Below are positions 37,750 to 40,975 of a stretch of DNA of 64,000 nucleotides, one piece after another. This stretch comes from the human T2T-CHM13v2.0 reference genome, Homo sapiens. Made by a program: the position numbers and the translations under genes. The notes below the pieces were generated by a model. It worked only from the letters and a program-made list of their open reading frames with translations. It was not told the origin of the DNA and made no database searches. Numbering within the stretch: position 1 is the stretch's first letter; every line of letters begins with the position of its first letter. Where the stretch lies: NCBI RefSeq assembly GCF_009914755.1, contig NC_060927.1; one strand, given 5' to 3'.

Positions 37750-38674
37750 TTATAGTAAGTCTTGAAATCAGACAGGGCAAGTATCCCAAAGTTGTTGTTT
37801 ATAAAAATTGTTTTAACCATTCTAGGTGTTTTGCAGCTTTATATAAATTTTAGAATCAACTTGTCAAGATTGCATTACATCTACAGATCAATTTGGGGAG
37901 AACTGATTTTTGATAATATTGTCTTCCAATTCATGTCTATTTATTTAGATCTTTAATTTCTCTCAGCAATGTTTTGTAGTTTTCCGTGCACAAGTAGTAT
38001 ACCTTTTTGTTGTTAAGTTATCCCTAAATATAGAATTTTTTAATGGTATTGAGAATGGTATCATAAAATTTCTTTTCCATTGTTCTTGACATTATGTAGA
38101 CATATATTTGATTTTTGTATGTTGAGCTAGTATTCTATGATCTAAAACTTCTTATTTCTAGTAGCATTTTTGTAGACTCAGGATTTTCTATGTACACAGT
38201 CATGTCACATGAGAATAAAGATAGTTTTACTTCTTATTTTCAAATCTACATGACACTTATTTCTTACTTTTCTCTTTCACTGGCTAGAATCTCCTGTATA
38301 ATGTTGGTTAGAATTGGTAAGAACAGATATTATTGCTTTGTCCGTGATTTTAGATTAGAACTCATTCCATCTTTTACCATTGAGTATAAAGCTAGTTTAG
38401 GTTTGTCATAGATGCCATTCATCAGCTGAGAAAATTCTCTGCTCCTAGTTTGTTGAGAGTTTTTATGGTGAATAGATGTGGAATTTTGTCAAATGGTTTT
38501 GTTTGCATTTTTCATTTGTTTTTTATCTTGAGATGATCATGTAGTTGTTCCCTTTTATTCTGTTAACATGGTGAGTTGTGTTTATGAAGTTTTAAATGTT
38601 GAATAACCTTTGCATTCCTGGGATAAACTCTATTTGTTTACAACATGTTATTCCTTTTAAAAATCTTAAGGCAT

Positions 38675-40238
38675 CTCTCGTGGAGGCAGCTAGCTTGAGG
38701 CTGGGGAGTGCTGAGCTGCGTGTCATGCCCTGTGCTTGCCCAGACTAGTGAACAATGCAGTCAGGATGGCTAAAGGTGACCCCAAGAAACCAAAGGGCAA
38801 GATGTCTGCTTATGCCTTCTTTGTGCAGATGTGCAGAGAAGAACATAAGAAGAAAACCCCAGAGGTCCCTGTCAATTTTGCAGAATTTTCCAGGAAGTGC
38901 CCTGAGAAGCGGAAGATAATGTCTGGGAAAGAGAAGTCTAAATTTGATGAAATGGCAAAGGTGGATAAAGTATGCTATGATTGGGAAATGAAGGATTACG
39001 GACCAGCTAAGGGAGGCATTAGGATCCTTATTCTTGCCTCCCTTAGTTGGTCCCTAATCCTTCGTTTGGATCCCACTGTCTGGATTCTTCCTGCTCTGTT
39101 CCAAATTCTGCCCTAATATCAAATCCACAAACCCTGGTATCTCTATTGGAAATGTCGCAAAAAGGCTGGGTGAGATGTAGATTAACATGTAACAGTGAAA
39201 AGCCACCTTACATCACCAAGGCGACAAAGCTGAAGAAGTATGAGAAAGATGTTGCTGACTAAAAGAAAGTTTGATGGTGCAAAGGGTCCTGCTAAGGTTG
39301 CCTGGAAAAAACGTGGAAGAGGAAGACAAAGATGACGAGTAGGAAAAAGAGGATGAGAAGGATGAATTTTAAAAACTGTTTATCTGTCTCCATGTGAATA
39401 CGTTAGAGTAGGGGAGCACCTTAATTAACACATCAAGTGTCTGTTGCCCTCATTAGGTTTAATTACAAAATTTGATCACGATCAGATTGTAGTCTCTCAA
39501 AGTGCTCTAGAAATTGTCAGTGGTTTACATGAAATGGCCATCGGTGTCCAGAGCACCCTGAAGCTGTATCAAAATTGTATTTATTTCTAAACATTTTTAA
39601 AATGAAAAAATAATCTTGTGTTCTCCTCACTCTGCGCACTTTGCTGTTGGTGTGACAAGGCATTTAAAGATGTTTCTCCCCCGCCCCTTTTTTTTTTTAA
39701 CTTGTAAAGTGGTGTTAACATATAGTTATTGGCTAGAAATCCTGAGTTATCACTGTATATATCTCTAGTTTGTAAAAAGAACAAAACAATTGAGACAAAC
39801 TCTTGACACTCCTTGCTTGGCATTGAGGCTGCAGGGGAAGATGCCTTTTGGAGGGGTCGTAGCTCATGCACTGTGAGGTTGGACCTGGTGACTGCAGCAG
39901 GCATCCATTTAACTTCAGGTTGTCATGTTTTTGTATATAATGACGTAGCATTCTGCCTCCATTCTTAGCTATAGACAAAGGTGGGTCGGCTGGCATGAGA
40001 AGTGTTTTTTTGTTTGTTTGTTTTAGTTAAGTGTGATAGTTTTTAAACTGTTTCTTAAACAAACTGTAGAACTCTTCAGTGTCAGCAAAGGGAAGAGCCA
40101 CTGCATCAATGAAAGTTCAAAAGCCTTCTGTACTTAAACACGCTTTGCAATGTTGTTTTTTTTTTTTGTATGTTTAGAATGCTGAAATGCTTTTGAAGTT
40201 AAATAAACAATATTACAATTTTAAAAATAAAAATAAAA
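38675..40238 (+). pseudogene. HMGB3P13: Processed pseudogene of HMGB3 (5' UTR, intronless CDS from ATG 38766, 3' UTR, A-rich tail)
   Basis: [41 protein letters not shown]...KDYGPAKGG is HMGB3 box A; box B and acidic-tail relics with inversion, frameshifts and a TAG at 39178; aataaa at ~40202 then A-rich tail. The pseudogene number is recalled and less certain than the family call. Confidence 0.93.
38987..39066 (+). ncRNA. MIR4788: microRNA hairpin mir-4788 (mature 5p 38996-39017, UUACGGACCAGCUAAGGGAGGC)
   Basis: 33-bp stem (38986-39018 / 39035-39067; 30 Watson-Crick, 2 G:U, 1 C-C mismatch), 16-nt loop; sequence matches my recollection of hsa-miR-4788. Confidence 0.85.
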
Positions 40239-40644
40239 TTGGTAGACTCTGCTAATATTTTGTTAGAGATTTTTATGTTATGTTCATGAGGGACATTAGT
40301 CTTTAGTTTTCTTTTCTTACAATATCTTGGTCTGGTTTTGGTATCAGGATAATGTTATCTTCGCTAAACAAATTGGGAAATGTTACCTCCTCTATTTTAT
40401 GAAAATATTTACCTGAAATTTGTATTATTTCTTTCTGAAATGTTGTAAGGAATTCATCAGTGATGCCATCTAGACCTGGAGTTTTCTTTGTAGGAAGGGA
40501 TTTATTTACAAATTCAATTTCTTTAATAAGTGTATGGCACTCCAGATTTTTAACTTCTTTTCCAGTTTTGGCAAATCATATTTTTCAAATAATTTGTCTA
40601 TTTTATCTAAGTTGTCAAATTTATTGGCATAAAGTTCTTCATAA

Positions 40645-40975
<331 letters not shown>

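What the first reader, a model, noticed from the sequence alone, without database searches (positions are those of the whole stretch)
38986..39075. A microRNA hairpin created by one fold-back template switch inside an HMGB3 retrocopy
Seen: after ...GCTAAGGGAGGCA the pseudogene stops following HMGB3. The reverse complement of 39016-39067 is AAACGAAGGATTAGGGACCAACTAAGGGAGGCAAGAATAAGGATCCTAATGC. This is the HMGB3 linker ([19 protein letters not shown] as I recall it) copied backwards, including the downstream KKDPN part missing from the forward strand. The switch point has GCA/GGAG(G)CA microhomology, and sense sequence resumes at CCACTGTCTGGATTCTTCC after a short GGATC filler. The result is a 33-bp stem with a 16-nt loop, and a UG at 38982-38983, exactly -14/-13 from the recalled 5p start (the Microprocessor basal UG position). 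Known (recalled): this matches mir-4788. Inference: the miRNA was born de novo by template switching. Its 3p arm is antisense to HMGB3 mRNA, so the hairpin could give a near-perfectly complementary small RNA against HMGB3 and its other retrocopies.
Basis: partly seen in the sequence, partly recalled or inferred. Interest (0 to 1): 0.85.

Follow-up and report, generated by a model that had tools for sequence, protein, structure and literature searches.

The report
MIR4788 hairpin born by template switch
A known human microRNA gene lies inside a dead copy of the HMGB3 gene and was evidently made in one step, when about 50 bases of that copy were re-copied backwards; the published list of such cases that I could read does not include it.

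Summary
Window 38986-39067 is a 33-bp inverted repeat with a 16-nt spacer. It folds far better than shuffled sequence (z -8.5). It is the only place in the whole assembly that matches Rfam mir-4788 above threshold.

I aligned the region to the real HMGB3 gene on contig C23. The retrocopy follows exon 3 up to ...GGAGGCA (39018). Bases 39016-39067 then match the opposite strand of the same exon (48 of 52 identical, one 3-nt gap). This stretch includes 19-22 nt of linker that the forward strand lacks. Sense sequence resumes at 39073 after a 5-nt GGATC. The two alignments overlap by GCA. Neither the parent nor any of 19 other retrocopies examined has the repeat.

One interstrand template switch is the best explanation. 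It is probably old: the inverted copy is as diverged as its flanks.

In print, miR-4788 is called "de novo by mutations" in HMGB3P13. It is absent from the one readable supplementary table of template-switch miRNAs.

The functional idea is weak. The single annotated product is the 5p arm, which is sense to HMGB3, and duplex-end stability favours it. The antisense 3p would pair almost perfectly with HMGB3 but has no support here.

Verdict: a new member of a known kind.

The parts
38666..40237 (+). Processed pseudogene (retrocopy) of HMGB3. It is annotated as HMGB3P13 at 38718-39648, but the alignable span is longer and is followed by an A-rich tail.
   Evidence: It is colinear with four parent exons without introns. 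The 3' UTR aligns to the parent as far as 40226. Other retrocopies share sequence from 38666/38675 to about 40237. The parent's first coding exon best matches PDB 2eqz_A, 'High mobility group protein B3', E 1e-30.
38982..38983 (+). TG (UG in RNA) 14 and 13 nt upstream of the annotated 5p start.
   Evidence: Printed. In the minimum-energy fold these two bases are paired in a lower-stem extension. Whether they sit at a single-strand/double-strand junction is therefore open.
38986..39018 (+). 5' arm. This is original sense sequence of the retrocopy, from HMGB3 exon 3, coding for [11 protein letters not shown].
   Evidence: It lies within the forward match to the parent, 73 of 79 over 38940-39018. 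Within the arm there is 1 difference from the parent in 33 nt, at 38999.
38996..39017 (+). Annotated mature miR-4788, a 22-nt product from the 5p arm with the same sense as HMGB3 mRNA.
   Evidence: Hub gene table, with the sequence printed. The exact 22-mer occurs at this locus only among the 21 loci examined. It occurs with 1 mismatch in the parent gene and in 4 retrocopies.
39016..39018 (+). GCA microhomology at the first switch point.
   Evidence: These bases are shared by the end of the forward alignment (query 79) and the start of the minus-strand alignment (query 77).
39019..39034 (+). Loop. It is an inverted copy of the parent's lysine-run/D-P-N linker bases, which are absent in forward orientation.
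   Evidence: There is one substitution and a 3-nt shorter AAG run relative to today's parent. The same shorter run is seen in 9 of 19 other retrocopies.
39035..39067 (+). 3' arm, an inverted copy of the 5' arm region and therefore antisense to HMGB3.
   Evidence: It has 3 differences from the reverse complement of the parent in 33 nt.
39038..39059 (+). Inferred 3p product. It is not annotated. I derived it from the 5p ends assuming 2-nt 3' overhangs.
   Evidence: This is my inference. Pairing to the HMGB3 site is 20 Watson-Crick pairs, 1 G.U at position 10 and 1 mismatch at position 17, with seed positions 2-8 perfect.
39068..39072 (+). GGATC, 5 nt at the return junction whose template is unresolved.
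   Evidence: It aligns to neither strand unambiguously. With the next C it reads GGATCC, a palindrome that also occurs in the parent's linker. In the fold, TC plus the following CCA pairs with 38982-38986.
39073..39130 (+). Resumed sense sequence of the retrocopy. The parent's exon-exon junction falls between 39077 and 39078.
   Evidence: Parent splice sites were read. The forward match starting at 39078 is.

Best explanation
The feature is the annotated microRNA gene MIR4788, and its hairpin was created by a single interstrand template-switch mutation inside the HMGB3 processed pseudogene HMGB3P13.

Inferred course of the event:
- A polymerase making the sense strand stopped after ...GGAGGCA (39018).
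- Its GCA end re-paired with TGC on the opposite template, 19-22 nt further downstream.
- It copied 49 nt backwards. These were first the linker bases (now the loop), then the [11 protein letters not shown] codons (now the 3' arm).
- It then returned to the original template at CCAC..., leaving 5 nt (GGATC) of unclear origin.
- In total, 29-32 parent bases were replaced by 54.

Timing: the event was early in the life of the retrocopy.

How it works, by inference from standard miRNA biogenesis: a transcript through the locus folds into a 33-bp stem. Microprocessor cuts about 10 bp above the base of the repeat, at 38995/38996, and Dicer cuts near the loop. The 5p strand is kept because its 5' end is weakly paired. 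That strand has the sense of HMGB3, so it acts, if at all, through ordinary seed matches in unrelated mRNAs and not on HMGB3.

Shown here: the rearrangement, its uniqueness in the genome and the fold. Inferred: which polymerase acted, the timing, the processing and the strand choice.
For: - Breakpoints and inverted match. The inverted alignment gives 48 of 52 identical and score +40. A forward alignment of the 54 inserted bases to the 32 replaced parent bases scores -20.
- Microhomology: GCA is shared by both alignments.
- Downstream bases: the inverted piece holds parent bases that lie beyond the stop point and are absent in forward orientation. This is the signature of a templated copy and not of drift.
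- No hairpin in relatives: 0 of 20 homologous segments (the parent plus 19 retrocopies) have an inverted repeat. Their self-reverse-complement scores are 6-10 against 28 here. Their fold energies are -0.16 to -0.30 kcal/mol per nt against -0.43 here.
- Orientation in the genome search: query bases 294-350 hit 22 other places (the parent exon and 21 retrocopies), each on the strand opposite to its colinear match wherever one search lists one. Only the window's own locus holds both orientations.
- Single copy: RF03371 finds only this locus in the 3.1-Gb assembly, with 57 candidates scored.
- Published criteria: inverted fragment of at least 15 nt, at least 80% identity and at least 5 mismatches explained. 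These are met if the parent gene stands in for the ancestor.
- Age: the inverted copy differs from the parent at 4 of 52 sites (7.7%), the flanks at 19 of 259 and 53 of 598. A simple Poisson comparison favours an early event: likelihood 0.154 for an event at insertion against 0.0048 for one at a quarter of the age. One paper states that miR-4788 is conserved from human to marmoset (passages).
- Strand choice: the five terminal pairs at the 5p 5' end score +2.1 kcal/mol, and those at the 3p 5' end score -7.0. The hub table lists one mature product, on the 5p arm.
Against: - No primate orthologue could be read here, so the state before the event is inferred from a paralogue (the parent gene) and not from an ancestor.
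- The 5-nt GGATC at the return point is not explained by a clean four-point switch.
- The timing argument rests on 4-5 substitutions. It weakens if site 38999/39054 is read as one shared change followed by a second: the best fit then moves to about half the retrocopy's age.
- The hairpin shows no sign of constraint: 5 changes in 85 nt against 72 in 857 in the flanks, Fisher p 0.54. Nothing here shows that the miRNA is under selection.
- I found no Drosha or Dicer dependence data. The 10 papers holding both 'mir-4788' and 'Drosha' look like reviews or profiling studies by their listing, and I did not read them.
- The 5p sequence differs from HMGB3 mRNA at one base only. Some reported 'expression' could therefore come from mRNA fragments or cross-hybridisation.
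- In the minimum-energy fold the 16-nt loop pairs internally and leaves a 4-nt terminal loop, which is small for a canonical pri-miRNA.
Confidence: 0.8

Rival explanations
1. The geometry is the same, but the switch happened during retrotransposition itself. In this reading the L1 reverse transcriptase, or the polymerase making the second strand, jumped from the first-strand cDNA to the still-present HMGB3 mRNA. It copied that backwards for about 49 nt and then jumped back.
For: The inverted copy is as diverged from the parent as the flanks. There is no clearly shared derived change between the arms. The likelihood is highest for an event at the time of insertion. The locus is absent from a screen that needs an orthologous pre-event ancestor, which fits an event on the same branch as the insertion.
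Against: First-strand synthesis cannot give this order of pieces, because the required template is not yet made (my reasoning from the order of segments). The known L1 rearrangement, 5' inversion by twin priming (recalled), inverts the whole 5' part and not an internal 50 nt between two direct flanks. No data here separate this reading from an early replication error.
Confidence: 0.15
2. There were two events. First the nascent strand folded back on itself, giving arm, forward loop and inverted arm. Later the loop was inverted.
For: Loop inversions of existing hairpins are reported for 4 miRNA loci, for example hsa-mir-4713 (passages). The final sequence is compatible with this path.
Against: It needs two rare events where one suffices. 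The GCA overlap sits exactly where a single interstrand jump would place it.
Confidence: 0.05
3. The hairpin is real, but it is not a working canonical miRNA. The small RNAs assigned to it would be rare by-products, or fragments of HMGB3 mRNA and of other retrocopy transcripts mapped with a mismatch.
For: The 5p 22-mer is one mismatch from the parent mRNA and from 4 retrocopies. The hairpin shows no excess conservation. A 2017 review says the coding potential still needed experimental proof (passage). I found no processing data.
Against: The stem length, the position of the annotated 5p end about 10 bp above the base of the repeat, and the UG at -14 all fit Microprocessor substrates (the rules themselves are recalled). 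Rfam keeps a family for it. One paper reports it as the most highly expressed of 17 retrocopy miRNAs in normal tissues and lowest in stem cells (passages). Functional papers exist, which I saw only as a search listing.
Confidence: 0.25
4. The stem arose gradually by point mutations and small indels in the decaying pseudogene. This is the mechanism the published wording 'occurrence of mutations during evolution' suggests.
For: Only that wording.
Against: The 54 nt align to the replaced parent bases with score -20 in forward orientation and +40 in reverse. 48 of 52 bases equal the opposite strand of the parent, including bases that lie downstream of the break.
Confidence: 0.01
5. A second, tiny antisense HMGB3 cDNA fragment was inserted into the first retrocopy.
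For: There are many HMGB3 retrocopies in the genome: 75 matches.
Against: The fragment lies exactly next to its own source bases, replaces 29-32 nt, joins through microhomology and has no poly-A or target-site duplication.
Confidence: 0.01

Closest known systems
Template-switch-generated primate miRNA genes (Monttinen, Frilander and Loytynoja, PNAS 2023, PMC10710096; examples hsa-mir-4713 and hsa-mir-576)
   Same: A single replacement mutation copies 20-88 nt from the opposite strand and makes a perfect stem in a place that had none, and a miRBase miRNA results. The size here (49-52 nt) lies within the range of their Table S1. Their numerical criteria are met.
   Different: mir-4788 is not in their Dataset S1: 0 occurrences of '4788' in the whole file. 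Their cases are mostly intronic and come from non-coding sequence. This one is made from protein-coding sequence of a retrocopy. It can be polarised only with the paralogous parent gene, because the locus has no older orthologue. Their SI Appendix and Datasets S2 and S3 could not be read here.
[quoted passage not shown]
   Same: This is the same locus. It is already described as a miRNA of de novo origin inside HMGB3P13, with no stem-loop in the parent, and conserved from human to marmoset (passages).
   Different: The main text gives 'mutations' as the cause and holds neither 'inver...' nor 'template'. Its supplementary figures S3 and S4 could not be opened and might show the inverted match.
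Plant miRNA genes formed by inverted duplication of their target genes (recalled: Allen et al. 2004, not read here)
   Same: The hairpin arms are a gene fragment and its inverted copy, so one arm is almost fully complementary to the founder gene.
   Different: Here the founder is a retrocopy and the duplication is only about 50 nt. The arm that accumulates according to the annotation is the sense arm. No targeting of HMGB3 is shown.
Endogenous siRNAs from pseudogene inverted repeats in mouse oocytes (recalled: Tam et al. 2008 and Watanabe et al. 2008, not read here)
   Same: Pseudogene-derived double-stranded RNA with the potential to act on the parent gene.
   Different: Those are long duplexes processed by Dicer without Microprocessor. 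This is a hairpin of pri-miRNA size with one annotated product.
L1 twin-priming 5' inversions in retrocopies (recalled; a '5'-inverted' class is named in the abstract listing of PMC2912911)
   Same: An inverted segment inside a retrotransposed copy, with microhomology at the junction.
   Different: Twin priming inverts the entire 5' part. Here a short internal segment is duplicated in inverted form between two direct flanks.

Membership tests
Rfam RF03371 mir-4788 | Covariance-model score at or above the gathering score (91 bits) | tested here: met
   107.8 bits, E 3.2e-23, model positions 1-80 of 80, window 38987-39066 on the + strand. It is the only locus above the cut-off in the whole assembly.
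Canonical animal pri-miRNA | Stem of about 35 bp with the Drosha cut about one helical turn above the base (rule recalled) | tested here: met
   The repeat stem is 33 bp. The annotated 5p starts at 38996, which is 10 bp above the base of the repeat at 38986. The fold adds 5 + 3 further pairs below a 4-nt bulge.
Canonical animal pri-miRNA | Unstructured apical loop of about 10 nt or more (rule quoted in the introduction of PMC10710096) | tested here: inconclusive
   There are 16 nt between the arms. The minimum-energy fold pairs 5 bp inside this stretch and leaves a 4-nt loop.
Canonical animal pri-miRNA | Basal UG at -14/-13 and a downstream CNNC (motifs recalled) | tested here: inconclusive
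   UG is present at 38982-38983 but is paired in the fold. The nearest CNNC (CCAC, 39073-39076, read) starts 14 nt after the inferred 3p end. That is slightly short of the position I recall as usual.
Canonical animal pri-miRNA | Precise 5p and 3p reads with 2-nt overhangs, and dependence on DROSHA/DGCR8 and DICER1 | not testable with these tools
   No small-RNA data are available here. The library searches found no such test (by the listing alone).
Template-switch mutation (four-point model) | Inverted fragment of at least 15 nt, at least 80% identical to the nearby opposite strand, explaining at least 5 mismatches better than a forward alignment (criteria) | tested here: met
   52 nt, 48 of 52 identical (92%). 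The inverted alignment scores +40 and the forward alignment -20. The parent gene served as proxy for the ancestor.
Template-switch mutation (four-point model) | The pre-event state lacks the repeat | tested here: met
   The parent and 19 of 19 other retrocopies examined lack it. The true orthologous ancestor could not be examined.
Template-switch mutation (four-point model) | Clean return to the original template | tested here: inconclusive
   5 nt (GGATC, 39068-39072) are left unexplained, or need a further short step.
Processed pseudogene of HMGB3 | Colinear with the spliced exons, no introns, poly-A remnant | tested here: met
   Four exon blocks are joined. An A-rich tail follows the last aligned 3' UTR base, near 40230-40240. 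The parent is identified through PDB 2eqz_A. A target-site duplication was not resolved.
Hairpin that silences its founder gene (plant-type or endo-siRNA-type) | The small RNA from the antisense arm accumulates and represses the founder | not testable with these tools
   Complementarity is present: 20 Watson-Crick pairs, 1 G.U and 1 mismatch. But the hub table lists only the sense-arm product, and end stability favours that arm.

The most novel reading that the evidence does not exclude
MIR4788 would be an animal case of a miRNA gene born, in one mutational step, as an inverted duplication of its future target. In this reading the unannotated 3p strand (39038-39059) is loaded at low level, or in particular tissues. 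It guides slicing or repression of HMGB3 mRNA and of transcribed HMGB3 retrocopies at the linker codons. Its near-absence from annotation would reflect strand bias, or decay triggered by these highly complementary targets. A corollary is that scans which polarise template switches with parent genes instead of orthologues should uncover further retrocopy-borne hairpins that existing screens could not see.
Probability: 0.07. Interest if true: 0.75.

Novelty: new member of a known kind. Interest (0 to 1): 0.45.

Why it matters
It gives a clean, fully resolved example of how a miRNA-sized hairpin can appear at once from ordinary coding sequence. Both breakpoints, the microhomology and the lost bases are visible, because the parent gene survives as a reference.

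It also points to a blind spot. Screens that need an orthologous ancestor cannot see template switches that happened on the same branch as a retrocopy's insertion. Using the parent gene as outgroup can. The other three 'de novo' retrocopy miRNAs (miR-7161, miR-4468, miR-572) are also absent from the published table and could be tested the same way.

A practical point follows for miR-4788 studies. The mature sequence is one base away from HMGB3 mRNA, so its measurement needs mismatch-aware mapping.

Tried and rejected
Its figures S3 and S4, which may show the parent alignment, were not seen.
- Of the PNAS paper's supplements only Dataset S1 was readable. The SI Appendix and Datasets S2 and S3 were not.
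- No primate genome is reachable with these tools, so I could not date the event by orthologues. I used arm and flank divergence instead, which is weak.
- A first PDB query used the wrong frame and failed. The corrected one is.
- The search for a target-site duplication gave only a 10-nt A/T-rich match, which I do not trust.
- I tried to explain GGATC as a continuation of the inverted copy, or as a copy of the parent's GGATCC. Neither can be decided from the sequence.
- The 3-nt gap in the inverted copy was considered as evidence for an old allele. I rejected it as firm evidence, because the AAG run varies among retrocopies of all ages: 9 of 19 are shorter by exactly 3 nt, and 2 more are shorter in other ways.
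- Literature searches for a link between miR-4788 and HMGB3 found 3 papers, none about regulation. Searches pairing miR-4788 with Drosha found 10 papers, none of them a processing test by the listing alone, as I read none.
- Gradual mutation and nested insertion were considered and rejected (see rivals).
Full report
**1. What is in the sequence**

Window 38986-39018 and 39035-39067 form a 33-nt inverted repeat, 91% complementary, with 16 nt between the arms.

As RNA, 38966-39095 folds at -66.4 kcal/mol. The mean of 200 dinucleotide shuffles is -34.4 (sd 3.8), giving z -8.46, and none of the 200 folds as well. Of the three non-Watson-Crick positions, two are wobbles (38989/39064 and 39005/39048). 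One is a C.C mismatch (38999/39054).

Rfam RF03371 (mir-4788) matches 38987-39066 on the + strand at 107.8 bits, above the gathering score of 91. The minus strand reaches 67.3 bits and folds less well, at -55.9 kcal/mol.

A search of the whole 3.1-Gb assembly with the same family finds this locus only, with 57 candidates scored.

**2. The parent gene**

A DNA search of the assembly with the annotated pseudogene gave 75 matches. They include four exon-sized blocks on contig C23, which I fetched as L021 and L022.

The first coding exon of that locus best matches PDB 2eqz_A, 'High mobility group protein B3' (E 1e-30). HMGB1 chains score lower.

Splice sites read show that the relevant exon ends ...CCACC and the next begins GTCTGG. 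The retrocopy crosses this junction without an intron.

**3. The rearrangement**

BLAST of window 38940-39130 against the parent locus gives three pieces:
- forward 38940-39018, 73 of 79 identical
- forward 39078-39130, 47 of 53 identical
- on the opposite strand, 39016-39063, 45 of 51 columns identical with one 3-nt gap

Extended to 39067, the reverse complement is identical to the parent at 48 of 52 aligned bases (score +40). The same 54 inserted bases (39019-39072), aligned forward to the 32 parent bases they replace, score -20.

The inverted piece covers two parts of the parent. One is the codons now forming the 5' arm. The other is the next 19-22 parent bases, which I read by the standard code from the DNA as the lysine run and D-P-N-A. 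The retrocopy lacks these bases in forward orientation.

The forward and inverted alignments overlap by GCA (39016-39018).

After 39067 come five bases, GGATC, that fit neither strand uniquely. Then CCACTGTCTGG follows, which is the parent's sequence across the exon junction.

The 3-nt gap lies in an AAG run that is equally short in 9 of 19 other retrocopies, and shorter in other ways in 2 more. It is therefore no argument against homology, and no firm marker of age either.

**4. It is unique to this copy**

The 169-nt homologous segment of the parent and of 19 other retrocopies (L002-L020) aligns colinearly, and only the window's own locus gives a second, inverted hit.

The best self-reverse-complement score is 6-10 in those 20 segments and 28 here. 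Fold energies per nt are -0.16 to -0.30 against -0.43 here.

In one search, query bases 294-350 hit 22 other places (the parent exon and 21 retrocopies). Each hit is on the strand opposite to its colinear match, wherever one search lists one.

**5. Mechanism**

The order of pieces is: sense arm, inverted downstream bases, inverted arm, then sense sequence with a deletion. This is what one template switch with two jumps produces.

The inverted copy contains bases that lie beyond the stop point. The growing strand therefore cannot have used itself as template, whichever direction synthesis ran. The jump must have been to the opposite strand, which the PNAS paper calls an interstrand switch (passage). 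The alternative is two events: a self-fold-back followed by a loop inversion, a class of event that paper reports at 4 loci.

I prefer the single interstrand switch. Which polymerase made it is not shown. A replication error soon after insertion and a switch during second-strand synthesis at retrotransposition give the same product. First-strand reverse transcription does not, because its required template would not yet exist (my reasoning).

**6. Age**

Substitution divergence from today's parent is:
- 19 of 259 (7.3%) to the left of the hairpin
- 53 of 598 (8.9%) to the right
- 4 of 52 (7.7%) in the inverted copy

The arms share no clearly derived base. The forward arm has 1 private change and the inverted arm has 3.

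A Poisson comparison gives likelihood 0.154 for a switch at the time of insertion, 0.038 at half the age and 0.0048 at a quarter. If the doubly hit site 38999/39054 is read as a shared change, the optimum shifts to about half the age.

The Retro-miRs paper states that miR-4788 is conserved from human to marmoset (passages).

The Rfam consensus keeps the unpaired position corresponding to the C.C mismatch. It shows G-C or C-G pairs where human has three wobbles, which hints at lineage-specific transitions. I could not see the seed sequences.

The hairpin is not measurably more conserved than its flanks: 5 of 85 against 72 of 857, p 0.54.

**7. Function**

The hub table lists one mature product, 38996-39017, on the 5' arm. 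It has the sense of HMGB3 and differs from the parent mRNA at one base. The exact 22-mer occurs only here among the 21 loci examined, and with one mismatch in the parent and in 4 retrocopies.

Its start lies 10 bp above the base of the repeat and 14 nt after a UG. This fits the recalled Microprocessor rules, although the fold pairs that UG.

The inferred 3p (39038-39059) would pair with the HMGB3 site by 20 Watson-Crick pairs, one G.U at position 10 and one mismatch at position 17, with a perfect seed. It would pair equally well with 5 of the 19 retrocopies.

The 5' end of 5p is weakly paired (+2.1 kcal/mol over five pairs, which include the C.C mismatch). That of 3p is strongly paired (-7.0). 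By the recalled asymmetry rule this favours 5p, in line with the annotation.

I rate it at about 7%.

**8. What is in print**

| Paper | What it says | What I saw |
|---|---|---|
| 2017 review (PMC5408686) | hsa-miR-4788 overlaps HMGB3P13 and needs experimental proof | passage, |
| PNAS 2023 (PMC10710096) | Template switching established as a source of 111 miRBase loci | passages, section 13 and Dataset S1; |

- The Retro-miRs main text holds neither 'inver...' nor 'template'.
- Dataset S1 of the PNAS paper was searched whole. It has no '4788', and no mir-7161, mir-4468 or mir-572 either.
- The PNAS method compares orthologous ancestor and descendant nodes (section 13). By my inference it therefore cannot see an event on the branch where the locus itself was inserted.
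- Further searches found nothing that links miR-4788 to template switching or to HMGB3 regulation: 'mir-4788' gave 57 papers; 'HMGB3P13' gave 3; 'mir-4788' with 'HMGB3' gave 3; and 'template switch', 'retrocopy', 'inverted' and 'microRNA' (at least 3 of the 4 terms) gave 212 papers, of which 15 were listed.
- The library lacks most subscription journals.

**9. Verdict**

For this locus it is apparently unreported. It is a further example of a known mechanism acting on a known miRNA. The claimed action on HMGB3 has no support beyond complementarity.

Noticed in passing
window 38666-40237 (annotated HMGB3P13 38718-39648): The retrocopy is longer than its annotated span. The parent's 3' UTR aligns on to 40226, and other retrocopies share sequence from 38666/38675 to about 40237. 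An A-rich tail follows. A target-site duplication was not resolved.
   Followed up: partly
window 39019-39034 and the AAG run in loci L002-L020: The lysine-codon AAG run of HMGB3 varies in length among retrocopies. It is 3 nt shorter than today's parent in 9 of 19, and shorter in other ways in 2 more. The run has either slipped repeatedly or changed in the parent over time.
   Followed up: partly
window 38989/39064, 39005/39048 and loop pair near 39022/39032: At three paired columns the Rfam mir-4788 consensus shows C-G or G-C where the human sequence has a wobble pair. Either the human lineage took three transitions, or other primates made pair-restoring changes. The seed sequences could not be seen.
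   Followed up: no
window 38996-39017: The mature miR-4788 sequence is one mismatch away from HMGB3 mRNA and from at least 4 retrocopies. Array, qPCR or mismatch-tolerant mapping of this miRNA may pick up HMGB3-derived fragments.
   Followed up: partly
window 38987-39066, minus strand: The opposite strand also folds into a hairpin (-55.9 kcal/mol) and scores 67.3 bits with the mir-4788 model. Antisense transcription could therefore yield similar small RNAs.
   Followed up: no
not in the window: miR-7161, miR-4468, miR-572: The three other published 'de novo' retrocopy miRNAs are also absent from the published template-switch table. They could be tested against their parent genes in the same way.
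   Followed up: no
window 40689-40962: An interspersed repeat, Alu-like by my reading of the sequence printed, matches an intron of the parent locus at 82%. It is a shared common repeat and unrelated to the retrocopy.
   Followed up: no
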